Shown piece after piece: positions 1 through 50,042 of a stretch of 50,042 nucleotides of DNA. The notes under the pieces were generated by a model. That model searched no databases, was not told the origin of the DNA, and worked only from the letters and a program-made list of their open reading frames with translations. Positions within the stretch are counted from its first letter, which is position 1, and every line of letters starts with the position of its first letter. The translations under genes and the position numbers were made by a program. Source of the DNA: a virus (taxonomy: Duplodnaviria > Heunggongvirae > Uroviricota > Caudoviricetes); IMG/VR virus record IMGVR_UViG_640753025_000001, positions 1 to 50,042 of that record, one strand, 5' to 3'.

Positions 1-1254
1 ATGCTGGAACAAATGGGCATTGCCGCGAAGCAAGCCTCGTATAAATTAGCGCAACTCTCCAGCCGCGAAAAAAATCGCGTGCTGGAAAAAATCGCCGATG
101 AACTGGAAGCACAAAGCGAAATCATCCTCAACGCTAACGCCCAGGATGTTGCTGACGCGCGTGCCAATGGCCTTGGCGAAGCGATGCTTGACCGTCTGGC
201 ACTGACGCCCGCACGGCTGAAAGGCATTGCCGATGATGTGCGCCAGGTGTGTAACCTCGCCGATCCGGTGGGGCAGGTAATCGATGGCAGCGTACTGGAC
301 AGCGGCCTGCGTCTTGAGCGTCGTCGCGTACCGCTGGGGGTTATTGGCGTGATTTATGAAGCGCGCCCGAACGTGACGGTTGATGTCGCTTCGCTGTGCC
401 TGAAAACCGGTAATGCGGTGATCCTGCGCGGTGGCAAAGAAACGTGTCGCACTAACGCTGCAACGGTGGCGGTGATTCAGGACGCCCTGAAATCCTGCGG
501 CTTACCGGCGGGTGCCGTGCAGGCGATTGATAATCCTGACCGTGCGCTGGTCAGTGAAATGCTGCGTATGGATAAATACATCGACATGCTGATCCCGCGT
601 GGTGGCGCTGGTTTGCATAAACTGTGCCGTGAACAGTCGACAATCCCGGTGATCACAGGTGGTATAGGCGTATGCCATATTTACGTTGATGAAAGTGTAG
701 AGATCGCTGAAGCATTAAAAGTGATCGTCAACGCGAAAACTCAGCGTCCGAGCACATGTAATACGGTTGAAACGTTGCTGGTGAATAAAAACATCGCCGA
801 TAGCTTCCTGCCCGCATTAAGCAAACAAATGGCGGAAAGCGGCGTGACATTACACGCAGATGCAGCTGCACTGGCGCAGTTGCAGGCAGGCCCTGCGAAG
901 GTGGTTGCTGTTAAAGCCGAAGAGTATGACGATGAGTTTCTGTCATTAGATTTGAACGTCAAAATCGTCAGCGATCTTGACGATGCCATCGCCCATATTC
1001 GTGAACACGGCACACAACACTCCGATGCGATCCTGACCCGCGATATGCGCAACGCCCAGCGTTTTGTTAACGAAGTGGATTCGTCCGCTGTTTACGTTAA
1101 CGCCTCTACGCGTTTTACCGACGGCGGCCAGTTTGGTCTGGGTGCGGAAGTGGCGGTAAGCACACAAAAACTCCACGCGCGTGGCCCAATGGGGCTGGAA
1201 GCACTGACCACTTACAAGTGGATCGGCATTGGTGATTACACCATTCGTGCGTAA
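1..1254 (+). CDS. proA: gamma-glutamyl phosphate reductase
   Basis: 417-aa ORF recognised as enterobacterial ProA; lies directly upstream of thrW as in E. coli. Confidence 0.93.
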
Positions 1255-1368
1255 ATAAAACCGGGTGATGCAAAAGTAGCCATTTGATTCACAAGGCCAT
1301 TGACGCATCGCCCGGTTAGTTTTAACCTTGTCCACCGTGATTCACGTTCGTGAACATGTCCTTTCAGG

Positions 1369-1444
1369 GCCGATATAGCTCAGTTGGTAGAGCAGCGCAT
1401 TCGTAATGCGAAGGTCGTAGGTTCGACTCCTATTATCGGCACCA
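1369..1444 (+). tRNA. thrW: tRNA-Thr (anticodon CGU), thrW-type
   Basis: 76-nt sequence GCCGATATAGCTCAGTTGGTAGAGCAGCGCATTCGTAATGCGAAGGTCGTAGGTTCGACTCCTATTATCGGCACCA with encoded CCA end. Confidence 0.9.
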
Positions 1445-1447
1445 TTT
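1399..1447. repeat. attL core: 49-bp direct repeat covering the tRNA 3' end
   Basis: ATTCGTAATGCGAAGGTCGTAGGTTCGACTCCTATTATCGGCACCATTT is repeated exactly at 43256..43304; flanks diverge on both sides. Confidence 0.8.
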
Positions 1448-1458
1448 AAATCAATAAG

Positions 1459-2619
1459 TTACCTCGCATTTAAGTAAACCACGTTCTCCTCTTGTGCCGT
1501 ATTTGTGCCATTGCGACTTATAATCGCATCGATTTTGCTTGCGTGCTCGGTGAGATGCCCGGCTGAAAGGTGGGCGTATCTTTGAACCATTTCGAGAGTT
1601 TCCCATCCTCCCATCTCTTTAAGTGCAAGAAGAGAGACACCAGACTGAACCAGCCAGCTTGCCCAGGTATGCCTCAGGTCATGGAAGCGGAAGTTGCTAA
1701 TGCCTGCCCGCTTTAACGCTCCCTTCCATGCCTTGTTGCTGTCGGTTCTCATCTTCCTTACCGCTGCTGTTTTTGTTCCGTCGCTTCGGTAGGCAGGTTT
1801 GGTGTGGACAAACACCCATCTCTTATGGAGACCCTGCTGTTTTCTTAATATCTGGCATGCGGTTTCGTTAAGAGGAACTCCGATCGCATTGCCAGCTTTT
1901 GTTTCATCAGGGTGCATCCATGCCATTTTCTTATCCAGATCGACCTGTGACCACTCAAGGTCTGTAACGTTGGAACGGCGAAGGCCTGTCGTGATTGCAA
2001 ACATGACCACAGGGAAGAAATGAGGAGCAATTTCTGCAAACAGGCGCTTCGATTCCTCCTCTGTAAGCCATCTGATTCGTCCATTCTTAACGCGTGGTGT
2101 TGATATTTTGGGCGCCCTGTCAAGCCATCCCCATTCAACAGCCATATTGAGAATAGCGCGAAGTATTGCCAGATGCCGCGTCTTCGTTCCTTTGCTTGCC
2201 AGCTTTGGTTTATACTCCGGCACTGGCTTGCCAAGCCGCAAACACCTGTCCCGGCTCATTTCCCAGTTCAGGCGATGGCGGCGGTTTTCCATCCCGTCTA
2301 CCGCCTCCATTATTTTTTCTGTTGTTATGTCTGAGAGAATGGTTTCTCTGAAGTGCAACATCCAGAACGATATAATGCTCTTGTCATCATCAATGGACTT
2401 CTTATCCGATTTCTCACGCAGCCACCGTATGCAGGCTTCCTTGAATAGCTTTTTCGGTGATTCCCCGAGATTTTTTACTCTCCACGCTTCTGCTTTCAGA
2501 CGATCGTGAAGTTCTTGCGCTTGCCTTTTGTCCGATGTTTCAAGAGAGCGTCTAACTCTTGATCCATCTGGCGCGACGAAATCGCAGTGCCACGTGCCAC
2601 CGCGTAGTTTGATTGACAT
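1459..2619 (-). CDS. int: tyrosine integrase, P22 Int-like
   Basis: 386-aa ORF with HDLRHTW and RYAHL catalytic region; 3' end 12 bp from attL. Confidence 0.9.
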   Translation of the reverse strand: MSIKLRGGTWHCDFVAPDGSRVRRSLETSDKRQAQELHDRLKAEAWRVKNLGESPKKLFKEACIRWLREKSDKKSIDDDKSIISFWMLHFRETILSDITTEKIMEAVDGMENRRHRLNWEMSRDRCLRLGKPVPEYKPKLASKGTKTRHLAILRAILNMAVEWGWLDRAPKISTPRVKNGRIRWLTEEESKRLFAEIAPHFFPVVMFAITTGLRRSNVTDLEWSQVDLDKKMAWMHPDETKAGNAIGVPLNETACQILRKQQGLHKRWVFVHTKPAYRSDGTKTAAVRKMRTDSNKAWKGALKRAGISNFRFHDLRHTWASWLVQSGVSLLALKEMGGWETLEMVQRYAHLSAGHLTEHASKIDAIISRNGTNTAQEENVVYLNAR

Positions 2620-2843
2620 GCTTTAACCTCCTGCACATCAACCGCATTCACCGCGCTATTGTGTCTCACAGACTTAAGCGCCGCAATGCAGTCTGACTTG
2701 CAAATGCGATATGGACTTTTAGGTTTATCTGGATTTATCTTTGCGGCCTGAAGTCGTCCACTTCGTATCCACTGTGTGATAGTGCCTTTGTCTACCTTCA
2801 GATACGACGCAGCTTCTTCACGAGTGAAGATTTCTTCTTCCAC
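2496..2843 (-). CDS. xis: excisionase-like protein
   Basis: 115-aa ORF upstream of and overlapping int start; N-terminus MEEEIFTREEAASYLKV typical of P22-type Xis. Confidence 0.7.
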   Translation of the reverse strand: MEEEIFTREEAASYLKVDKGTITQWIRSGRLQAAKINPDKPKSPYRICKSDCIAALKSVRHNSAVNAVDVQEVKACQSNYAVARGTAISSRQMDQELDALLKHRTKGKRKNFTIV

Positions 2844-10083: not shown

Positions 10084-10106
10084 AATAAAAAACCCACCGA
10101 AGTGGG
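10084..10106 (-). terminator. rho-independent terminator (tL-like)
   Basis: On minus strand: GC stem CCCAC/GTGGG with TTCG loop followed by T-run, just downstream of ORF 10107..10451. Confidence 0.5.
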
Positions 10107-10451
10107 CTATGACCATTTTTTATTTGGATTTCGTTGGTGAGCGTGATTAACAACTCTGTGCATGACATCCTCATATTTTTCATCTTCAATTTTTTCGACA
10201 TCGCGAGGAAATGGTGTTGCTAATGCTTTGTCAACTTTGTCCATTGGTTCTTCATTAATCTTATATTCAGGACCGTCATCTATAGCATTAAATCCAGGTG
10301 TTACACCGTTTTTTAATGCATATGCTATCCTTTTTTCCCATCTCGCTATTCTCCTCCTGTCTCGAGATGTAAGACCTCTATCAGATACTTTTCTGTTTTG
10401 TCCGCGGTCAGGATTAACATAAATAGTCTTTTTCACCATAAGCATACTCAA
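10107..10451 (-). CDS. hypothetical phage protein
   Basis: 114-aa ORF downstream of N. Confidence 0.5.
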   Translation of the reverse strand: MSMLMVKKTIYVNPDRGQNRKVSDRGLTSRDRRRIARWEKRIAYALKNGVTPGFNAIDDGPEYKINEEPMDKVDKALATPFPRDVEKIEDEKYEDVMHRVVNHAHQRNPNKKWS

Positions 10452-10753
10452 TAAGCACCGTACGGTAGTTTACTGTACAATTTTATTTTTTGGACTGCAT
10501 GTATTTTGTTTCCTAATGGGTTTGAATCTTTGTAATAAATACTTCTATTTTTTCGAACGACTTCTTCTTTCTTCTTGCAGCAAAGGCTTCCTAGTGATGC
10601 TGCTTTGTCTGCTCTGACGCAACCAGAGAGCTTTAGCGCAATTTTTCGCGCCAGTGCTTCATTACTGCGTCGCTCGGCAATAAGTTCTGCTCTGCGAGCT
10701 TTGTAGCGGCTTTTTGCCGTACCTTTGGATTCTTTCCAGACAATGGTTACCAT
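10448..10753 (-). CDS. N: N-like transcription antiterminator
   Basis: ATG at 10753 after AAGGAG; arginine-rich motif KSRYKARRAELIAERR near N-terminus; first gene of the leftward operon after nutL. Confidence 0.6.
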   Translation of the reverse strand: MVTIVWKESKGTAKSRYKARRAELIAERRSNEALARKIALKLSGCVRADKAASLGSLCCKKKEEVVRKNRSIYYKDSNPLGNKIHAVQKIKLYSKLPYGAY

Positions 10754-10863
10754 GATGGTCTCCTTTAAGTGGCTTTGGCGCATGACGCGTCGAGGTGCTT
10801 ATCTTCTCGATCGCTGTCTTGCAGCTGCAATTCGCGCCATCCCCAAAACCACTCAAGTTCTGG

Positions 10864-10903
10864 TCTCAACGGTTAGGTTGAGAGTCCGTCGATGTTAAAG
10901 AGC
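10864..10903 (-). promoter_or_regulatory. nutL-like site (boxA + boxB hairpin)
   Basis: Minus-strand GCTCTTTAAC (boxA) then hairpin TCTCAAC-CTAACC-GTTGAGA; loop CTAACC shared with nutR candidate. Confidence 0.45.
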
Positions 10904-11040
10904 CTGCCAATCTGTTCCGTTTGGCTTCCAGCGTCCTGCTGATGGCTTAAATTTAAGACTTCTTAATTTATTGGTCAAGTGCATTTTTGAAGAAAACTTA
11001 ATTTTATGGGCGTGAATTTAGTTTGTCTTTGATTTTTAAC

Positions 11041-11067
11041 GGGAAATAAAAAAGGGGCGAAAGCCCC
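11041..11067 (-). terminator. rho-independent terminator after repressor gene
   Basis: Hairpin GGGGCGAAAGCCCC with minus-strand T-run directly after the repressor stop. Confidence 0.6.
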
Positions 11068-11718
11068 TTAAGGAAGGTTTGCTAGCTTGGCATCAACGAC
11101 AACGCCAATGATTTTACAGTTCCCATTGATTTCAATCATTGGGTATTGTGGATTGAGTGGTTTCAGGAATTTTCTACCGGCATCAATAACTAACTTTTTG
11201 AATGTCGCCTCGTTTTCTCCTTCAAGTTTGGCGACTACCAGCTTTCCATTACGTGGTTCGACTTCTGGGTCGACGAGAATAATCATCCCCTCAGGAATAC
11301 TCAGTCCTGCCGGGGCAGTCATTGAATCGCCTTTAACGTCGAGCCAAAAAGAGTCTTCAGAACAATCTACCGTTGTGTCGTACCAGTTATCTATTGCACG
11401 CCTATGATATGGCTCTACAGCTTCCATCCAACATCCTGCGCTTACCCAACTAATTAGAGGATACGAACCTCTTGGATCATGCCTGCTGTGATAGGCAATG
11501 TTTGAAAGACTATCCTCTCCTTTCAACAGGTAATCAGGGGAGCACTGCAAAGCCTTGGCTAAGGCCAATAGGTTTTCGCCATTGGGCTCAGTTTCAGATC
11601 GCTCCCATTGGGAAATAGCAACATTAGACACGCCAACCATCTTGCCAAGGGCAGCCTGCCTAATCTTGAGTTCTTTTCTGCGAGCGCGAATACGCTCACC
11701 CATCAGTTGTGTATTCAT
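11068..11718 (-). CDS. c2: prophage repressor, P22 C2 / lambda CI type (HTH + S24 peptidase)
   Basis: 216-aa ORF; N-terminal HTH, C-terminal S24 domain with intact KGDSM Ser and FKKL Lys; recalled as near-identical to P22 C2. Confidence 0.88.
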   Translation of the reverse strand: MNTQLMGERIRARRKELKIRQAALGKMVGVSNVAISQWERSETEPNGENLLALAKALQCSPDYLLKGEDSLSNIAYHSRHDPRGSYPLISWVSAGCWMEAVEPYHRRAIDNWYDTTVDCSEDSFWLDVKGDSMTAPAGLSIPEGMIILVDPEVEPRNGKLVVAKLEGENEATFKKLVIDAGRKFLKPLNPQYPMIEINGNCKIIGVVVDAKLANLP

Positions 11719-11798
11719 AGTTAAGACATCTTAAATAAACTTGACTTAAGATTCCTTTGGTGGATAATTTAAGTGTTCTTTAATTTCGGAGCGAGTCT
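11719..11798. promoter_or_regulatory. divergent repressor/cro promoter-operator region
   Basis: TTGACT-N17-GATAAT promoter towards cro; several TTAAG/CTTAA half-site-like repeats; individual operators not resolved. Confidence 0.5.
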
Positions 11799-11984
11799 AT
11801 GTACAAAAAAGATGTTATTGACCACTTCGGAACCCAGCGTGCTGTTGCTAAAGCACTAGGCATTAGCGATGCAGCAGTCTCTCAGTGGAAAGAAGTTATC
11901 CCAGAGAAAGACGCCTATCGATTGGAAATCGTTACAGCTGGCGCCCTGAAGTATCAAGAAAGTGCTTACCGCCAAGCGGCATAA
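11799..11984 (+). CDS. cro: Cro
   Basis: 61-aa HTH protein divergent from the repressor. Confidence 0.85.
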   Translation: MYKKDVIDHFGTQRAVAKALGISDAAVSQWKEVIPEKDAYRLEIVTAGALKYQESAYRQAA

Positions 11985-11990
11985 GCAAAT

Positions 11991-12031
11991 TGCTCTTTAA
12001 CAGTTCTGGCCTTTCACCTCTAACCGGGTGA
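11991..12031 (+). promoter_or_regulatory. nutR-like site (boxA + boxB hairpin)
   Basis: TGCTCTTTAACAG (boxA) then hairpin TCACC-TCTAACCG-GGTGA just after cro. Confidence 0.45.
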
Positions 12032-12099
12032 GCAAACATCAGCGGCAAATCCATTGGGTGTGCCGCTATAACTCAATATCAATATAGGAAAATTAACAA

Positions 12100-12396
12100 A
12101 TGGCACAAGCAAGCTACAGCAAGCCAACACAGCGAGAAATTGATCGCGCTGAAACAGATTTACTCATCAACCTGTCAACGCTTACCCAGCGCGGTCTGGC
12201 AAAGATGATTGGCTGTCATGAATCGAAGATAAGCAGAACGGACTGGAGATTTATTGCTTCGGTCTTGTGTGCTTTCGGAATGGCATCAGACATCAGTCCG
12301 ATTAGCAGGGCTTTTAAGTATGCGCTTGATGAAATCACAAAGAAAAAATCCCCGGCTGCCACCGAGGATTTTAAGCAAATTGATATGCAATTCTGA
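12100..12396 (+). CDS. CII-like (P22 c1-type) transcriptional activator
   Basis: 98-aa HTH ORF in cII position. Confidence 0.65.
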
Positions 12397-12428
12397 GGGA
12401 ATTACTGGATCAATCCACAGGAGTAATT

Positions 12429-12575
12429 ATGACAAAACAACTCAGTCCTTACCAGGACAAAATTCACAAACACATACTACGTGATCGCTTCCTGTCCAGC
12501 TTCAAGCAGCCTGGTCGATTCCGGGCTGAGTTGGAAAAAGTGAAGCTGATGCAGAAGGAGAAAGGTCATGAGTAA
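12429..12575 (+). CDS. small hypothetical protein (48 aa)
   Basis: ATG at 12429 after AGGAG; stop overlaps O start; below ORF-track cutoff. Confidence 0.4.
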
Positions 12576-43464: not shown

Positions 43465-44673
43465 ATGAAACTTAATGCGCGACAGGTAGACGCAGCTAAA
43501 CCCAGAGAGAAAGCCTATAAGCTGGCAGATGGTGCTGGTTTGTATCTTGAGGTTGTTCCCTCTGGTTCCAGATACTGGCGGATGAAATATCGCTTCAATG
43601 GAAAAGAGAAGCGTATGGCCTTTGGTGTCTATCCGGCAGTGTCCCTTGCACAAGCGAGGGCACTGCGTGACGACGCCAAGAAAAAGCTTGCCGAAGGTAT
43701 CGATCCATCGCTTGCCAAGAAAGAAGAAAAGCTGGTTCGAGATGTGCAGCTAAATAATACGTTTCAGGCTGTGGCACTTGAATGGCATGGAACGAAGGTG
43801 AGCCGATGGTCAGAAGGTTATGCCTCGGACATTATCGAAGCCTTTAATAAAGATATTTTTCCCTATATTGGCCAACAACCGGTGAATGAAATCAAACCGC
43901 TGGTTCTGCTTAATGTGCTGCGTCGAATTGAAAGCCGTGGCGCGACAGAGAAGGCCAAGAAGGTTCGCCAGCGTTGCAGCGAAGTCTTTCGTTACGCCAT
44001 CGTAACCGGTCGTGCGGAATACAATCCTGCAGCGGATCTTACCAGCGCGATGTCAGGGCATGAATCGAAGCATTATCCCTTCCTTACTGTTGAGGAGTTA
44101 CCAGACTTTTTTAAAGCTCTCGCAGGCTACACAGGAAGCCCGTTAGTTGTTCTTGCGGCACGTCTGCTGATCCTCACGGGAGTTCGCACTGGCGAACTCC
44201 GAGGTGCTTTCTGGAGTGAGTTTGATCTTGAAAAAGCGGTGTGGGAGATACCTGCCGAGCGTATGAAGATGAAACGGCCTCACCTTGTCCCCCTCTCTAC
44301 CCAAGCGCTGGAAATCGTACAGCAACTCAAAGTGATGTCAGGGCAATATCCACTGGTGTTCCCGGGACGTAATGATCCCCGCAAGACGATGAGTGAAGCG
44401 AGTATTAATCAGGTTTTTAAGCGGATTGGATATACGGGGAGGGTAACGGGGCATGGTTTCCGTCACACGATGAGTACGATTTTGCATGAGGAAGGTTTCA
44501 ATACAGCGTGGATTGAAACCCAGCTGGCTCACGTTGATAAAAATGCGATTCGTGGGACGTATAACCATGCGTTGTATTTGGAAGGACGTAGGGAGATGAT
44601 GCAGTGGTATGCGGACTATATAAACGCTAATCATAATTCATGTATTTCTTTGCTGGTGAACGCTACAAAGTAG
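43465..44673 (+). CDS. int: tyrosine integrase, P4 type
   Basis: ATG at 43465 after GGGAGA; catalytic HGFRHT and RGTYNHALY regions; begins 160 bp after the tRNA 3' repeat, reading away from it. Confidence 0.9.
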   Translation: MKLNARQVDAAKPREKAYKLADGAGLYLEVVPSGSRYWRMKYRFNGKEKRMAFGVYPAVSLAQARALRDDAKKKLAEGIDPSLAKKEEKLVRDVQLNNTFQAVALEWHGTKVSRWSEGYASDIIEAFNKDIFPYIGQQPVNEIKPLVLLNVLRRIESRGATEKAKKVRQRCSEVFRYAIVTGRAEYNPAADLTSAMSGHESKHYPFLTVEELPDFFKALAGYTGSPLVVLAARLLILTGVRTGELRGAFWSEFDLEKAVWEIPAERMKMKRPHLVPLSTQALEIVQQLKVMSGQYPLVFPGRNDPRKTMSEASINQVFKRIGYTGRVTGHGFRHTMSTILHEEGFNTAWIETQLAHVDKNAIRGTYNHALYLEGRREMMQWYADYINANHNSCISLLVNATK

Positions 44674-44914
44674 ATTTGACGTGATGATAGGATTGATTAG
44701 GAAAATGACCTAAAACCGTATATTTTGATACTTAAGTTTAAACATTAGCCCTATATCCGATCGCCCTTTGTTACCTACACTTCTATCTTTTTTAGGTTCT
44801 AGGGCTGAAAGATTTGAAGATAAGTTTATAAATATCAATAGATTACATGATTGTGTTGGTTCTTGGGTAGCCGTAACGCCTAGGGCGGTAGCGTACTTAA
44901 GATGAGTATAAAAA

Positions 44915-46123
44915 ATGAACAGTAACTATATGCCATTCACACAACGAGATAGTCTCGGAAGATACTATACAAAAGAATCCATAAGTGCATTATTGGTTTC
45001 TCAGATGAAAGCTGAAAAAGTCAATAATATTATTGATTTAGCTTCTGGTGAGGGGAGCTTAACCTATGCTGCTTTAGACCGATGGAAGAATGCAGAAGCA
45101 TATTCTTTGGATATAGAATCTCGGATGTCAAAAAAAGTATGTGATAATCTTACTCATATTGTAACAGATGCCCTTGTTCATTCATTTCCTGAAATGCTTG
45201 CCCGACATCAAGGAAATTTTGATGTTGCAGTATGTAATCCTCCATTCACTCTCCCTGAATGGAGGGATGATTATTTTAAAATCATTAGTGAGATTGGCGC
45301 AGATAAATATATATCTGTCTCAAAATATGTCCCAGCAGAGATAATATTTATATCTCAAGTCATCAGGTTTCTTAAAAAGGGCGGTGAGGCTGGAATAATT
45401 TTACCTGATGGTATATTTACAGCAAGAAAGTTTATAGGTTTAAGACGATATTTATTGAATGAACATTCAATTACAAAAGTCATTGAATTGCCTAGGAATA
45501 TCTTCAAAAGGACAGAGGCTAAAACACATATTTTAATTTTTAATAAAAAAATTATGCCTCATCATAAAATACAATTACATTGTATAACTAAAGATGGGGA
45601 ATTGTCGCCTCCTGTTTTAATTAGAAAAGAAGATGCGGTTGAGAGAATGGACTACTCTTATCATTATAATAAAAATGAAGGTAAAGGGTTTAGCACAATA
45701 GGGATGCTTAAAAATATTTCAATTTTTAGAGGTAGGTTTAATTCAAAGGAAATTACGGAACATGTTTTTCATACGACAAAATTTAGTGGTGATGAAAAGT
45801 ACATTAAATTCCACTGCAACTCTGTAGAAGAATTGAAGCCATCAAAATTAGATGTCATTGCTAAGCCTGGTGATATATTAATAGCAAGAGTTGGGCGAAA
45901 TTTTCATAAAAAAATATTGTTTGTTGAGAGCGGCTATTCTTATATCAGTGACTGTATTTTTCTGATACGAGCCTCTGGTGGAGATAAGAAAAAACTATTT
46001 GATTTTCTTTGTTCTCAAGATGGGCAAGAGGAATTATCTCGAGCGAGTAGTGGTGTAGCCGCACAACATATTACAATGGATGCATTAAAAAAAATACATC
46101 TTGTAAGGATTAAACATGACTGA
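44915..46123 (+). CDS. N6-adenine DNA methyltransferase, gamma class
   Basis: 402 aa; GRYYTKESI (motif X-like), IIDLASGEGSLT (AdoMet motif I), CNPPF (motif IV, 45236..45247); ~160-aa C-terminal putative recognition domain; AT-rich. Confidence 0.8.
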   Translation: MNSNYMPFTQRDSLGRYYTKESISALLVSQMKAEKVNNIIDLASGEGSLTYAALDRWKNAEAYSLDIESRMSKKVCDNLTHIVTDALVHSFPEMLARHQGNFDVAVCNPPFTLPEWRDDYFKIISEIGADKYISVSKYVPAEIIFISQVIRFLKKGGEAGIILPDGIFTARKFIGLRRYLLNEHSITKVIELPRNIFKRTEAKTHILIFNKKIMPHHKIQLHCITKDGELSPPVLIRKEDAVERMDYSYHYNKNEGKGFSTIGMLKNISIFRGRFNSKEITEHVFHTTKFSGDEKYIKFHCNSVEELKPSKLDVIAKPGDILIARVGRNFHKKILFVESGYSYISDCIFLIRASGGDKKKLFDFLCSQDGQEELSRASSGVAAQHITMDALKKIHLVRIKHD

Positions 46124-47822
46124 TGTGGAATTAGATAGTAATTTTCTTATCGAGGAACGAGCTGATTATATTGATGAGGATACGATAAAAAATAATACTA
46201 TCAGATCTGGAGAGTTTTTCGATATTATACATAATGCTCTTATATCCCCAGGCATCAAACTTATAGTTGGTCCTAGGGGATGTGGTAAAACACATTTGAT
46301 GCGTTATGCTTGGGTTGAATGTAAAAACGATGATAACGCACCATTACCACTCTATGTTTCTTTTAATAAATATTTTAAGTTAGAGCCGCTTTTAAAAAAT
46401 AAACCAAATGCAATTGATCTCTTTCATAAATGGGTATTAGCAAAGATACTACTCTCTGCTTATGAAATTGCTTGCGATATTGAAGATTCTGAATATCTTG
46501 ATTTGTCAACGATACTCATAGCGGATAAAGAGTTCCTAATTAATTTAATCGTAAGGCTTGAGCAGGGTCTTTCGCCATCATTAGAACAAGAAAACATTGT
46601 TCAATTGATCAGTGTTTCTTCTGTCATATCCTCGTTGAGTTCACTATGTGATTGGCTTGAACGTAAAAGAGTCATTATTTTATTAGACGATGCAGCAATA
46701 AGCTTAACTCCTGAATATCTTTACGAGTTTTTTGATATTGTACGTAGTCTAAAAACCTCAAAAATAGCTTTAAAGGCATCGGTTTATCCTGGAACAACCG
46801 AATATGGCCCAAGGTTTCATGTTGCTCATGATGCTGAAACAATTGATGCTTGGATTTCGGTACAGCACCCTAATTATTCCTCAGTGATGGATGCTATAGC
46901 GCAGGCAAGGTTTCCTGGGTATGATGGCATTCCGGATGACTTGAAAGAGTTATTTAAATTCTCAGCATTTGGTATTCCACGTTCTTTTTTGATGATGTTA
47001 AGAGATTATCAAACAACTTTAAGTCAGACAACTCAGCAAAAATTTAATAAAATAATTGAAAGGTATGTTGAGCTTAGACTCAGCGAATACAGTTCACTAA
47101 AAGATAAGCTACCTCGATTGTTTGACATTGTTTCATTAGGTGAATCACTTTTATTAAAAGTAGTCGAATTACTCAAGGAAAGTAACTCCCAATATAAAGA
47201 AGAGAAACAAGTCATAATCGGTATAGAGAAAAATGATAATGTTTATTTTTCTCGACTCACTAAGCTATTAATTGAAACAGGGCTTTTTTATAATCTTCCT
47301 GATATTTCTCATGGTGATGGGCGTACTTATGAAAGATATATACCTCATTATGCTTTATTAATAAAGGAAAGAGTGTTTAACGAAGGAAGTAGAGGTTTTT
47401 CTCCTTCTCAGATTATTCAAAAAATACTAAGAAAGAATGCTAAGCATCCTGTCAGAAGAAACATTTCATCATTATTCAATGCTGAGCAACTTGCGAGACT
47501 TAAACTAACTTTACCTCCATGCAATAACTGCAAGACTCCGCGATTGACTGACAATCAAAAATTTTGCCATCATTGTGGGAATCAATTGATTGATGAGTCG
47601 GCCTATAATCAGTGCATGTCTATTCCACTGTCAAAAGTACCACATCTAACATCTTGGCAAATGCAAAAACTATCTGGGCTGGAAAAAGTAAAAACTATAG
47701 GAGATGTATTGTCTTTACAAGACCCTGGGAGTGAGTTAAGAAAAATTCACAGAATAGGACCCAAAATTGCCAATAAAATTATGGACAAAGTGTTATTACA
47801 TGTTGAAGAGTTTTTGTCTTAA
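46116..47822 (+). CDS. P-loop ATPase with C-terminal zinc ribbon and helix-hairpin-helix
   Basis: 568 aa; Walker A GPRGCGKTH (46269..46295), Walker B-like VIILLDDA, CNNCKTP...CHHCGNQL (from ~47519), HhH IHRIGPKIANKI; start overlaps MTase stop. Confidence 0.7.
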   Translation: MTDVELDSNFLIEERADYIDEDTIKNNTIRSGEFFDIIHNALISPGIKLIVGPRGCGKTHLMRYAWVECKNDDNAPLPLYVSFNKYFKLEPLLKNKPNAIDLFHKWVLAKILLSAYEIACDIEDSEYLDLSTILIADKEFLINLIVRLEQGLSPSLEQENIVQLISVSSVISSLSSLCDWLERKRVIILLDDAAISLTPEYLYEFFDIVRSLKTSKIALKASVYPGTTEYGPRFHVAHDAETIDAWISVQHPNYSSVMDAIAQARFPGYDGIPDDLKELFKFSAFGIPRSFLMMLRDYQTTLSQTTQQKFNKIIERYVELRLSEYSSLKDKLPRLFDIVSLGESLLLKVVELLKESNSQYKEEKQVIIGIEKNDNVYFSRLTKLLIETGLFYNLPDISHGDGRTYERYIPHYALLIKERVFNEGSRGFSPSQIIQKILRKNAKHPVRRNISSLFNAEQLARLKLTLPPCNNCKTPRLTDNQKFCHHCGNQLIDESAYNQCMSIPLSKVPHLTSWQMQKLSGLEKVKTIGDVLSLQDPGSELRKIHRIGPKIANKIMDKVLLHVEEFLS

Positions 47823-47892
47823 TTTTGATGGCATGTACTTGTCAATCGTGTCTTTCTTATCTGAAAAGTTTAATTTAAAAAGAGTCGGGAAA

Positions 47893-48870
47893 ATGGAACT
47901 AGAATCAAAAGAGGATTATGAAGAGACCACTCATCATAATGTGGCGTCCTCAGTTGTCACTGCAACCCATGATAACTTAGATGGAAGAGAGTTTTTTGAA
48001 CTATGTAGTAATCCAGCTCTAGTTTTTTCGTTTGAGACACACAAAAAATTTAATGAGTTACCTGTTGATAGCAAGGAATCCCCGTTAGATCTTTTTATAG
48101 CTAATACAAAGCAACTTCACTTGTTAAGATCTGGTGATATTTCAAACACATTAAGCCATCTGTTGTTATTAGGTTATGTGTCTGCAGCCGAAAGTTATTT
48201 GCGAGCTCTTATCAGAAATCTAATTAATCATGATGAATATATACAGTCTATAGTTTCTGATAAGGCCGTTAGTTATGCAGCGGCACAACACCATAAAAAG
48301 GAGTTATTACCAGAAGCTTTACTTGAGGACTTTTCATTGGCAAGCCCTTATAATGTTTTTGAAACATTAAAGGACATTATTGGAATGAAAGGACAACGAC
48401 CAATCGAAATGATGAAATGCTCAAGCGAATTCATGAAAGTTTGCGAGTTAAGGCATTGTTGTGTTCATCGATTTGGTAAGTTGGGTTCGAAAAATGCAAT
48501 CCGACTAGGATTGGCTGAACATATGAAGCACTTAGAAAAACCGATAATACTCAATAATGATGATCTCGAGCAAATCGCATTTATTGTTGAGAATTTTATT
48601 AGAACTTTGAATAATACCGTTTTCAAATTTATAATTAATCGTACAGTTGAGAACAAAAATAAGGAAAAAGGAGGGGAAAGACTATATGATTCTGAATGGA
48701 CATGGGTGTTTGAAAAAGATATAAGTCGATACGAAAAGTATTATTCAATATTTAGTGCCAAAAACGATACCCTTCCCGGATTATCATTACAGGATTCATA
48801 TCAACTTTTTGTTAATGCATATAAGCCTAAACTTCCTGCAAGAAAAAATAAAAAAACTGAAGAAAATTAA
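47893..48870 (+). CDS. hypothetical protein with Rx4H (HEPN-like) motif
   Basis: 325 aa from ATG 47893; RHCCVH at 48451..48468; AT-rich; alternative in-frame starts at 47767 and 47833. Confidence 0.5.
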   Translation: MELESKEDYEETTHHNVASSVVTATHDNLDGREFFELCSNPALVFSFETHKKFNELPVDSKESPLDLFIANTKQLHLLRSGDISNTLSHLLLLGYVSAAESYLRALIRNLINHDEYIQSIVSDKAVSYAAAQHHKKELLPEALLEDFSLASPYNVFETLKDIIGMKGQRPIEMMKCSSEFMKVCELRHCCVHRFGKLGSKNAIRLGLAEHMKHLEKPIILNNDDLEQIAFIVENFIRTLNNTVFKFIINRTVENKNKEKGGERLYDSEWTWVFEKDISRYEKYYSIFSAKNDTLPGLSLQDSYQLFVNAYKPKLPARKNKKTEEN

Positions 48871-49070
48871 CGCCACTACTATCTGAAAATATTAGTAATT
48901 TTTACTTGAAATGGCAGGGCGTTATTTTTTTTGATTGAATATGGGTAATGTTAAATATCTAATCATTTGAAACTTCTAGCTATATTAATAAATGTAATGT
49001 GTGAATGATGATGGTGCTTGCTTTAACTATAGATTGTTATTCCATATAGAAATTAGGTAATGACTCCAAC

Positions 49071-49574
49071 TTATTGATAGTGTTTTATGTTCAGATAATG
49101 CCCGATGACCTTGTCATGCAGCTCCACCGATTTTGAGAACGACAGTGACTTCCGTCCCAGCCTTGCCAGATGTTGTCTCAGATTCAGATTATGTCGCTCA
49201 ATGCGCTGAGTGTAACGCTTGCTGATAACGTGCAGCTTTCCCTTCAGGCGTGATTCATACAGCGGCCAGCCATCCGTCATCCATACCACGACCTCAAAGG
49301 CCGACAGCAGGCTCAGAAGACGCTCCAGTGTGGCCAGAGTGCGTTCACCGAAGACGTGCGCCACAACCGTCCTCCGTATCCTGTCATACGCGTAAAACAG
49401 CCAGCGCTGACGTGATTTAGCACCGACGTAGCCCCACTGTTCGTCCATTTCAGCGCAGACAATCACATCACTGCCCGGTTGTATGCGCGAGGTTACCGAC
49501 TGCGGCCTGAGTTTTTTAAGTGACGTAAAACCGTGTTGAGGCCAACGCCCATAATGCGTGCACTGGCGCGACAT
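49071..49574 (-). CDS. insB: IS1 InsB (expressed as InsAB' by frameshift)
   Basis: 167-aa ORF recognised as IS1 InsB. Confidence 0.9.
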
Positions 49575-49768
49575 CCGACGCCATTCATGGCCATATCAAT
49601 GATTTTCTGGTGCGTACCGGGCTGAGAGGCGGTGTAAGTGAACTGTAGTTGCCATGTTTTACGGCAATGAGAGCAGAGATAGCGCTGATGTCCGGCAGTG
49701 CTTTTGCCGTTACGCACCACGCCTTCAGTAGCGGAGCAGGAAGGACATCTGATGGAAATGGAAGCCAC
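49493..49768 (-). CDS. insA: IS1 InsA
   Basis: 91-aa ORF recognised as IS1 InsA. Confidence 0.9.
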
Positions 49769-49823
49769 GCAAGCACCTTAAAATCACCATCATACACTAA
49801 ATCAGTAAGTTGGCAGCATTACC

Positions 49824-50042
49824 CAAAATCAACAAGCTCAGTTTCATCCAGCTCAACAAATTCAAGTATTTTTTCTTTCGCATTTTTTCTTTCGCATCGG
49901 CATCGCGGTTTTGTTTTTTCAAATACGTCTGAAAATACTCACATGCTTTCGCAAAACTCATTGTGTAAATCATTGCCGCATATCGTAGTGCCTGTAACTC
50001 CATATGCGTCCCCGTTTCATCACGTTTTAATTCGATAACCAC
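49824..50042 (-). pseudogene. partial ORF running into IS1, unknown function
   Basis: Minus-strand frame enters from beyond the window edge and continues across the IS1 end at 49823. Confidence 0.3.

What the first reader, a model, noticed from the sequence alone, without database searches (positions are those of the whole stretch)
10864..12031. Candidate nutL and nutR sites share a CTAACC boxB loop
Both flanks of the immunity region have a boxA-like GCTCTTTAAC followed by a short hairpin whose loop contains CTAACC (nutL on the minus strand at 10864..10903, nutR at 11991..12031). This supports the N-like assignment of 10448..10753 and gives a testable RNA target.
Basis: inference. Interest (0 to 1): 0.25.

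Follow-up and report, generated by a model that had tools for sequence, protein, structure and literature searches.

The report
Phage 21-type nutL and nutR sites
These two short RNA signals are the already well-studied "nut" sites of coliphage 21, present unchanged in a prophage of E. coli HS, where they let the phage N protein make RNA polymerase read through terminators; the finding is correct but ordinary.

Summary
GCTCTTTAAC occurs exactly twice in the 50 kb window, at 10894-10903 (minus) and 11992-12001 (plus). Each copy is followed 10-11 nt later by a 7-bp hairpin with a CTAACC loop (10864-10883 minus; 12013-12032 plus). Shuffled sequence does not reproduce this. Window 10531-12100 is 99% identical to coliphage 21, and both nut pieces are 100% identical to it. 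The phage 21 GenBank record annotates boxA-L, nutL, boxA-R and nutR at exactly these homologous positions. N residues 8-29 match 22/22 the phi21 N peptide of PDB 1NYB, whose boxB RNA has a CUAACC hexaloop. In 78 related loci carrying this N arm, the CTAACC boxB is always present at nutL, across several immunity types. Two loci share the window's repressor and boxA but have an HK620-type arm, and both of their boxBs are switched to a CGAAAT loop. The window is a P22/HK620-like prophage of E. coli HS, where RefSeq calls N "hypothetical". Side notes: N is a chimera (phi21 arm, HK620-type C-terminus), and HK022 Nun is encoded 2 nt downstream. Novelty: already known. Interest: low.

The parts
10950..10978 (-). 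pL promoter (TTGACC-17-TAAATT); the transcript start maps to about 10943
   Evidence: Promoter scan. The phage 21 record annotates the pL transcription start at L001 1013, which is window 10943, with OL operators just upstream.
10894..10903 (-). boxA-L (GCTCTTTAAC), the presumed NusB-NusE (S10) binding element of nutL
   Evidence: Exact 10-mer, one of only two in the window. Annotated boxA-L in phage 21 and 'putative Nut boxA site' in mEp235 and HK629.
10864..10883 (-). boxB-L hairpin: stem TCTCAAC/GTTGAGA (7 bp), loop CTAACC
   Evidence: Fold. Annotated as the nutL stem_loop in phage 21 and 100% identical to it. Present in 78 of 78 loci with the phi21-type N arm.
10448..10753 (-). N antiterminator gene (101 aa): phi21-type residues 1-57, HK620-type C-terminus. 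The AAGGAG Shine-Dalgarno sequence favours the ATG at 10753 over the in-frame ATG at 10783.
   Evidence: 80% identical to phage 21 N, with all differences after residue 57. Three-module alignment. Annotated as N in mEp235. Pfam N_peptide hit below threshold.
10667..10732 (-). Codons for N residues 8-29 (ESKGTAKSRYKARRAELIAERR), the arginine-rich motif that binds boxB
   Evidence: 22/22 identity to PDB 1NYB chain A, the phi21 N peptide in complex with boxB RNA.
11068..11718 (-). imm21 repressor (LexA/P22 C2-like, HTH_3 plus Peptidase_S24)
   Evidence: Pfam. 99% DNA identity to phage 21, DE3 and lambda imm21.
11741..11768 (+). pR promoter (TTGACT-16-GATAAT)
   Evidence: Promoter scan, 10 of 12 matches. 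It lies among the OR operators annotated in phage 21.
11799..11984 (+). cro (P22_Cro family)
   Evidence: Pfam PF14549, E = 5.7e-28.
11992..12001 (+). boxA-R (GCTCTTTAAC), 8 nt after the cro stop codon
   Evidence: Exact 10-mer. Annotated boxA-R in phage 21.
12013..12032 (+). boxB-R hairpin: stem TTCACCT/GGGTGAG (7 pairs, two G.U), loop CTAACC
   Evidence: Fold. Annotated as the nutR stem_loop in phage 21, mapping to window 12014-12031, and 100% identical to it. Natural loop variants CTAACA and CTAATC occur in relatives.
12100..12396 (+). cII, the first gene beyond nutR and tR1
   Evidence: Pfam Phage_CII, E = 2.7e-33. tR1 is annotated in phage 21 at the position matching window 12079-12082.
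10107..10445 (-). nun (HK022-type transcription termination and exclusion factor). Its ATG lies 2 nt after the N stop codon. It is a neighbour of the N/nut system, not a working part of it.
   Evidence: 107/109 identity to PDB 6ALG chain N; its arm is identical to 1HJI. Annotated as Nun in mEp235. Present downstream of N in 59 of 80 related loci.
10091..10108 (-). Intrinsic-terminator-like hairpin (AGCCCAC-TTCG-GTGGGTT plus a T-run) right after nun, a candidate first terminator for N to override in the pL operon
   Evidence: Terminator scan. Its function is inferred.

Best explanation
These are the nutL and nutR sites of the phage 21 specificity class, in a P22/HK620-like prophage of E. coli HS. 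After induction, RNA polymerase starts at pL (leftward) and pR (rightward) and transcribes each nut site within about 40 nt (pL) or about 240 nt (pR, after cro). In the nascent RNA, boxA (GCUCUUUAAC) is bound by host NusB-NusE(S10). The boxB hairpin with its CUAACC loop is bound by the arginine-rich N-terminal helix of the prophage's N protein (residues about 8-29). The shared central segment of N (residues 34-57) presumably contacts NusA, and the C-terminal segment contacts RNA polymerase. The resulting RNA-tethered complex stays on the polymerase and makes it resistant to downstream terminators: tR1 before cII, and the hairpin after nun and further terminators on the left. Shown here: sequence identity to the experimentally characterised components, their placement, and their co-inheritance with the N arm. 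Taken from established knowledge of lambda, phi21 and P22: the binding partners and the antitermination mechanism. Inferred: that this particular chimeric N is active in E. coli HS.
For: The boxA plus CTAACC-hairpin pair occurs only at these two places and is not expected by chance. Window 10531-12100 is 99% identical to phage 21, DE3 and lambda imm21, and the whole 10400-12100 stretch is 99.8% identical to mEp235. The phage 21 record annotates boxA-L, nutL, boxA-R, nutR, pL, the operators and tR1 at the homologous positions, and both nut pieces are 100% identical to it. N residues 8-29 equal the peptide of PDB 1NYB, whose RNA is the phi21 boxB with a CUAACC hexaloop (PMC12550061). pL and pR consensus promoters face the two sites. 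All 78 IMG/VR loci with this N arm carry the same boxB-L. The same boxB-R was found wherever a nutR was present in the fetched DNA. It occurs across nutL-nutR distances of about 1088, 1608, 2308, 2419, 2663 and 2738 nt, which means several different immunity regions, and even next to a lambda-like boxA. Natural swap: L075 and L076 have the same repressor (98.6%), the same boxA and the same N residues 34-101. They carry an HK620-type arm and, at both nut sites, a different boxB (CCCGC-CGAAAT-GCGGG). The divergent patch is confined to about 10641-10890 on the left and begins right after boxA-R on the right. The nutL and nutR stems share no sequence yet both pair. Across 8 boxB variants, 6 of 7 stem pairs change on both sides and 96% of cells are paired, against 25-52% for slid controls.
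Against: Nothing in the data contradicts it. Limits follow. The hairpins are not thermodynamically exceptional (z = -0.28 and -0.52). Rfam has no nut family, so no curated RNA model supports it. Pfam's N_peptide model scores below its cut-off (18.4 against 27.9 bits). The C-terminal third of this N is not the phage 21 version that was studied, but an HK620-type version. The covariation set is small and was chosen because its members form hairpins. The primary phi21 papers could not be read in this library.
Confidence: 0.95

Rival explanations
1. The two motif pairs are chance or generic features: a boxA-like word and an unremarkable short hairpin with no regulatory role.
For: The hairpin free energies are within the range of shuffled sequence. 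With one mismatch allowed, the boxA word is no more frequent than chance (4 found, 2.9 expected).
Against: The exact 10-mer occurs twice against 0.12 expected, with 0 of 300 shuffles reaching two. Both copies are followed at the same spacing by the only two CTAACC-loop hairpins in the window. Both face away from the immunity region, downstream of pL and pR. They are conserved in 78 related loci and are annotated as nut sites in phage 21.
Confidence: 0.01
2. The sites are inactive relics. The prophage is defective, or its chimeric N (phi21 arm plus HK620-type C-terminus) no longer works, so the nut sites are present but do nothing.
For: The N C-terminus differs from the studied phage 21 protein. 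RefSeq labels N 'hypothetical'. Truncated relatives exist, for example L012, which lacks nutR because cro is broken.
Against: The identical chimeric N and nut arrangement occurs in the isolated, plaque-forming phages mEp235 and Kapi1. The N ORF, promoters, repressor, cro, cII and replication genes are intact. The HK620-type C-terminus is the one used by HK620-type N proteins. The prophage spans integrase to tailspike, with matches to complete phages.
Confidence: 0.03
3. The hairpins are targets of the neighbouring Nun protein, which arrests transcription, rather than of N.
For: Nun is encoded 2 nt downstream of N and is known to act at nut boxB RNA (PDB 1HJI is listed as NUN-PROTEIN; that its partner is lambda boxB is from my own knowledge).
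Against: The Nun arm is identical to that of HK022 Nun, which recognises the lambda-type boxB and not a CUAACC hexaloop (established knowledge, not tested here). Self-targeting would block the phage's own early operons. The boxB type tracks the N arm, not Nun: L075 also has Nun but carries a different boxB, and phi21-arm loci without Nun keep the CTAACC boxB.
Confidence: 0.01

Closest known systems
nutL and nutR of coliphage 21 (phi21), with the phi21 N peptide-boxB complex, PDB 1NYB
   Same: boxA, spacer, boxB stem and loop are identical base for base at both sites. The N arm is 22/22 identical to the peptide in the structure. Promoters, operators, repressor, cro and cII are 99% identical.
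   Different: The last 40 or so residues of N are of HK620 type rather than phage 21 type. The gene after N is nun, whereas phage 21 has ral there. The rest of the prophage is a P22/HK620-like podovirus, not phage 21.
Phage lambda nutL and nutR
   Same: Same architecture and position: boxA, short spacer and boxB hairpin, one site after pL before N and one after cro before tR1 and cII. [quoted passage not shown]
   Different: Lambda boxA is CGCTCTTA (as quoted in the HK629 and mEp235 annotations), whereas here it is GCTCTTTAAC. Lambda boxB has a purine-rich pentaloop, not a CUAACC hexaloop (own knowledge). N sequences are barely alignable: the phage 21 record quotes BLASTp E = 9e-6 to lambda N.
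HK620/N7/JEP4-type N and nut sites (seen in L075 and L076)
   Same: Identical boxA, identical leader upstream of boxA, 84% identical N residues 34-101 and, in L075/L076, the same imm21-type repressor and a downstream nun.
   Different: The N arm is MTVVITYLADDNARNRRRARRQAQ..., and boxB is CCCGC-CGAAAT-GCGGG at both sites.
Phage P22 gene 24 and its nut sites
   Same: The repressor and Cro between the nut sites are P22 C2/Cro relatives (about 84% DNA identity over 1.1 kb). The general nut layout is the same.
   Different: DNA similarity to P22 stops at the pL/boxA-L leader on the left (only query positions 1-57 match). N, boxB-L and boxB-R are not P22-like.
HK022 put sites and Nun
   Same: nun is 98% identical to HK022 nun. 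The 117 nt upstream of HK022 nun are 99% identical to the 3' end of this N gene.
   Different: HK022 has no intact N and uses cis-acting put RNA (own knowledge). In its record a 'put. nutL equivalent' occupies the place of nutL and the 5' part of N.

Membership tests
Lambdoid nut site, phage 21 specificity class | boxA element matching the Nus-factor consensus, 5' of boxB | tested here: met
   Exact GCTCTTTAAC at both sites and nowhere else in the window. Identical to the boxA-L and boxA-R annotated in phage 21.
Lambdoid nut site, phage 21 specificity class | boxB stem-loop a short distance (about 10 nt) 3' of boxA | tested here: met
   7-bp hairpins 10 nt (nutL) and 11 nt (nutR) after boxA. 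Stems differ in sequence but both pair, and 6 of 7 pairs covary across variants.
Lambdoid nut site, phage 21 specificity class | boxB loop CUAACC, as in the phi21 boxB of PDB 1NYB | tested here: met
   The loop is CTAACC at both sites. PMC12550061 describes the 1NYB RNA as a CUAACC hexaloop.
Lambdoid nut site, phage 21 specificity class | One site in the pL transcript upstream of N, and one in the pR transcript between cro and tR1/cII | tested here: met
   pL at 10978-10950 and pR at 11741-11768 by consensus scan. Gene order from ORFs and Pfam. Same layout as annotated in phage 21. Transcription itself was not measured.
Lambdoid nut site, phage 21 specificity class | Cognate N protein with the phi21 arginine-rich motif encoded in the same phage | tested here: met
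   22/22 identity of N residues 8-29 to 1NYB chain A. Arm and boxB co-occur in 78 of 78 loci and switch together in L075 and L076.
Lambdoid nut site, phage 21 specificity class | N- and Nus-dependent antitermination at downstream terminators | not testable with these tools
   Needs reporter or in vitro transcription assays.
Lambda-type nut site (target of lambda N and HK022 Nun) | boxB with the lambda-type purine-rich pentaloop on a GC-rich 5-bp stem | tested here: not met
   The loop is the hexamer CTAACC on 7-bp stems. The lambda loop sequence is recalled from the literature and was not retrieved here.
Any curated Rfam RNA family | Covariance-model hit at or near the gathering score | tested here: not met
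   cmscan of 10300-12500 at E up to 10 gave only weak unrelated hits, none on the nut sites. Rfam appears to hold no nut or boxB model.

The most novel reading that the evidence does not exclude
The specificity determinants behave as a two-patch cassette that is exchanged in a coordinated way around an unchanged immunity region. One patch of about 250 bp holds boxB-L, the N leader and N residues 1 to about 37. It is bounded by boxA-L on one side and the conserved centre of N on the other. The second change begins immediately 3' of boxA-R. The invariant boxA words and the conserved N segment 34-57 act as crossover points. This lets E. coli prophages re-pair arm and boxB types (phi21 or HK620) with either C-terminal N module, often with an HK022-type Nun attached. 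Nun would exclude lambda-type superinfecting phages while sparing the prophage's own nut type. This would be a modest addition to the known mosaic evolution of lambdoid phages, not a new mechanism.
Probability: 0.5. Interest if true: 0.2.

Novelty: already known. Interest (0 to 1): 0.07.

Why it matters
It matters little beyond annotation. The result lets two genes that RefSeq labels "hypothetical protein" in E. coli HS (WP_000256573 and WP_000930322) be named N and Nun. It also lets two regulatory RNA sites be annotated by identity to phage 21. The phi21 N-boxB pair is one of the classic model peptide-RNA complexes. The survey here adds a small natural data set: loop variants CTAACA and CTAATC at nutR, closing-pair variants in L004, and a clean natural arm/boxB swap. 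Anyone engineering orthogonal N-boxB tethering pairs could use these.

Tried and rejected
1. Rfam scan of 10300-12500 at E up to 10 gave nothing on the nut sites, only weak unrelated hits.
2. Pfam: N matches PF25694 N_peptide below its cut-off, and Nun matches nothing. Family membership therefore rests on PDB and GenBank identity instead.
3. A gapped pattern, GCTCTTTAAC-N(8-16)-YCTAACCR, found only nutL, because the nutR spacing to that 8-mer is 17 nt. A custom script replaced it.
4. Thermodynamic z-scores for the hairpins were not significant, so they were dropped as evidence.
5. The primary papers were not held in the library: Cilley & Williamson 2003 (DOI and PMC1370434) and Cocozaki et al. 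2008 (PMC2446750). The CUAACC loop is therefore cited through PMC12550061.
6. I looked for the printed E. coli rrn boxA consensus in PMC3177189 and PMC2800207 to support 'GCUCUUUAAC = rrn-type boxA'. The text does not hold the string, so that statement stays marked as my own knowledge.
7. I considered P22 gene 24 and its nut sites as the match, because the repressor and Cro are P22-like. This was rejected: similarity to P22 ends in the leader at boxA-L.
8. Five loci seemed to lack nutR. Three have it with a variant boxA. One is a truncated prophage. One (L060, mEpX1) probably has its nutR beyond the 3-kb flank and remains unresolved.

Full report
**1. The observation**

I read window 10300-12400 directly.
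- Minus strand, 10903 down to 10864: GCTCTTTAAC ATCGACGGAC TCTCAAC CTAACC GTTGAGA.
- Plus strand, 11992 to 12032: GCTCTTTAAC AGTTCTGGCCT TTCACCT CTAACC GGGTGAG.

- The exact 10-mer GCTCTTTAAC occurs at these two places and nowhere else on either strand.
- In 300 dinucleotide-preserving shuffles of the window the mean count is 0.12, and no shuffle has two copies.
- Of 16 CTAACC words in the window, only these two sit as a hexaloop closed by a stem of 5 pairs or more. Both stems have 7 pairs. The shuffle mean is 0.14, and 2 of 300 shuffles reach two.
- RNA folding returns both hairpins.
- Their free energies are ordinary for the base composition (z = -0.28 and -0.52 on 56-nt pieces). Stability alone is therefore no evidence; the case rests on the composite motif, its placement and its conservation.

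**2. The surroundings**

ORFs and Pfam give a textbook lambdoid immunity region:
- a LexA/P22-C2-like repressor (11068-11718, minus);
- a P22_Cro-family cro (11799-11984, plus);
- cII (12100-12396, plus);
- then O-like and DnaB-like replication genes.

A consensus scan finds pR (TTGACT-16-GATAAT, 11741-11768, plus) and pL (TTGACC-17-TAAATT, 10978-10950, minus). nutL therefore lies about 40 nt into the pL transcript and 110 nt upstream of the N start codon. nutR begins 8 nt after the cro stop codon and lies before cII.

The N ORF (10448-10753, minus) has an AAGGAG Shine-Dalgarno sequence 8 nt before the ATG at 10753 (read).

**3. Identity**

- Window 10400-12100 is 99.8% identical to phage mEp235 and 99.6% to Kapi1. 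From 10531 rightwards it is 99.0% identical to coliphage 21, to DE3 and to lambda imm21.
- The phage 21 record OL657228 carries hand-made regulatory annotation: boxA-L, nutL stem-loop, pL start, OL1-3, OR operators, boxA-R, nutR stem-loop and tR1.
- With the offset window = L001 + 9930, these map to 10896-10903, 10864-10883, 10943, 11992-11999 and 12014-12031.
- Alignments of 66-nt pieces around each site show 100% identity between the window and phage 21.
- N residues 8-29 (ESKGTAKSRYKARRAELIAERR) match 22/22 the only chain of PDB 1NYB that a protein search can see. That chain is the phi21 N peptide solved in complex with boxB RNA.

That condition is not met; the published boxB is the same.

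From my own knowledge, not retrievable here:
- the phi21 nut sites were defined by Franklin (J Mol Biol 1985);
- arm/boxB specificity among lambda, phi21 and P22 was shown by Lazinski, Grzadzielska and Das (Cell 1989);
- the NMR structure is Cilley and Williamson (RNA 2003), which is cited in PMC6061696.

**4. Family-wide test**

I fetched 80 IMG/VR loci encoding relatives of this N and scanned them by script.

- All 78 loci with the phi21-type arm have boxA GCTCTTTAAC followed by TCTCAAC-CTAACC-GTTGAGA at nutL. One locus, L004, has G to A next to the loop.
- Wherever a nutR lay inside the fetched DNA it has the TTCACCT-CTAACC-GGGTGAG hairpin. Natural loop variants are CTAACA (HK629, L009, L051-L057) and CTAATC (L028).
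- The distance between the two boxA elements takes values near 1088, 1608, 2308, 2419, 2663 and 2738 nt. The repressor is either about 100% identical, about 40% identical or unrelated to the window's. The same nut pair therefore brackets several different immunity regions.
- In L081-L083 the nutR boxA is lambda-like (CGCTCTTTCA) while boxB is unchanged.
- Missing nutR: L012 is a truncated prophage in which cro breaks off mid-gene. L060 (mEpX1) probably has its nutR beyond the flank.

**5. A natural specificity swap**

L075 and L076 matched only N residues 34-101.
- They have the same repressor as the window (98.6% identity), the same boxA at both sites, the same 1087-nt spacing and a downstream nun.
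- Their N arm is MTVVITYLADDNARNRRRARRQAQ..., the HK620/N7/JEP4 type.
- Both of their boxBs read CCCGC-CGAAAT-GCGGG.

A binned alignment of the window against L075 shows:
- 90-100% identity through nun and the 3' two-thirds of N;
- a divergent patch (38-57% identity) from about 10641 to 10890, covering N codons 1 to about 37, the leader and boxB-L;
- high identity again from boxA-L through pL, the repressor, cro and boxA-R;
- an abrupt drop right after boxA-R (about 12004).

Arm and boxB therefore change together at both sites while everything between them stays the same. This is what a cognate protein-RNA pair predicts.

A four-way protein alignment shows that N has three modules:
- the arm (residues 1-33);
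- a segment shared by all four proteins (LARKIALKLSGCVRADKAASLGSL, residues 34-57);
- a C-terminus that comes in a phage 21 form and an HK620 form.

The window's N combines the phi21 arm with the HK620-type C-terminus.

**6. Stem covariation**

The nutL and nutR stems share no sequence yet both form 7 pairs around the same loop.

On an ungapped alignment of eight boxB variants:
- 96.4% of cells form standard pairs;
- 6 of 7 pairs show changes on both sides;
- partners slid by 1-3 columns give 25-52% pairing.

The set is small and was picked because its members form hairpins, so this is supporting evidence rather than independent evidence.

In L004 the G next to the loop is A at both sites. This turns U.G into U-A at nutR and breaks the C-G pair at nutL.

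**7. Mechanism**

The best explanation is the standard N/nut mechanism.
- The nascent boxA RNA binds NusB-NusE.
- The boxB hairpin binds the N arm as an alpha-helix.
- N's central and C-terminal parts engage NusA and RNA polymerase.
- The RNA-looped complex travels with the polymerase. It suppresses tR1 and later terminators on the right, and the terminator-like hairpin after nun (10108-10091) and others on the left.

The binding partners and the mechanism come from established work on lambda, phi21 and P22. Shown here are identity with the studied components, correct placement and co-inheritance. Activity in this strain is inferred.

Rivals (chance, dead relic, Nun target) are each given 3% or less, for the reasons listed under rival explanations.

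**8. Context and novelty**

The window is the E. coli HS chromosome at 100% identity. It runs from proA, a tRNA-Thr gene and an integrase at the left end to an IS1, an HsdM-family methyltransferase gene and a second tyrosine-type recombinase/integrase gene at the right end.

The prophage is a P22/HK620-like podovirus:
- its early region is most like phiv205-1, Kapi1, mEp235 and HK620;
- its late region is most like JEP4 and CUS-3.

RefSeq labels both N and Nun 'hypothetical protein' and annotates no nut sites there. The finding therefore improves this genome's annotation.

The elements themselves are already known in sequence, structure and function. I score interest at 0.07 and novelty as 'already known'.

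Noticed in passing
window 10107-10445 (minus): A gene 107/109 identical to HK022 Nun (PDB 6ALG chain N; arm identical to 1HJI) starts 2 nt after the N stop codon. This prophage therefore carries both an N/nut antitermination system of phi21 type and the exclusion factor known to act at lambda-type nut sites. Nun follows N in 59 of the 80 related IMG/VR loci, with either arm type. RefSeq calls it 'hypothetical protein' in E. coli HS.
   Followed up: partly
window 10449-10565 (minus); L084 (HK022 X16093) 901-1017: The 117 nt directly upstream of nun in phage HK022 are 99% identical to the 3' end of this N gene. They lie just downstream of HK022's annotated 'put. nutL equivalent'. HK022, which has no N, seems to keep a 3' remnant of an HK620-type N gene. 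This suggests that put replaced nutL plus the 5' part of N.
   Followed up: partly
window 10448-10753 (minus): N is a three-module mosaic. Residues 1-57 are identical to phage 21 N. Residues 58-101 are HK620-type (KDSNPLGNKIHAVQKIKLYSK...). Residues 34-57 are shared by both lineages and look like a recombination linker.
   Followed up: yes
L002 (HK629) nutR; L009, L051-L057 nutR; L028 nutR; L004 nutL and nutR: Natural variants of the phi21-type boxB: the last loop base C to A (CTAACA) in at least 9 loci, CTAATC in one, and G to A at the loop-closing position at both sites of L004. These suggest that loop position 6 tolerates change; this was not tested.
   Followed up: no
L081-L083, about 540 (minus strand of the loci): Here nutR has a lambda-like boxA (CGCTCTTTCA) combined with the phi21-type boxB, while nutL in the same loci has GCTCTTTAAC. 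The boxA type can therefore differ between the two sites of one phage.
   Followed up: no
window 1-2800 and 44500-50042: The left flank holds proA, a tRNA-Thr gene, then the prophage integrase. The right flank holds an IS1 transposase, an HsdM-family methyltransferase, a zinc-ribbon/ORC-CDC6-like ATPase gene and a second tyrosine recombinase. That suggests another mobile or defence island abutting the prophage.
   Followed up: no
window 12345-12372 (minus): A strong terminator-like hairpin (12 pairs plus a T-run) lies antisense to the 3' end of cII. It matches the position of the oop RNA annotated in HK629 ('similar to coliphage lambda oop RNA').
   Followed up: no
L012 about 1855: In this IMG/VR contig cro breaks off after ...SQWKEV into unrelated sequence, and nutR is absent. 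It is a truncated prophage or a chimeric assembly.
   Followed up: partly
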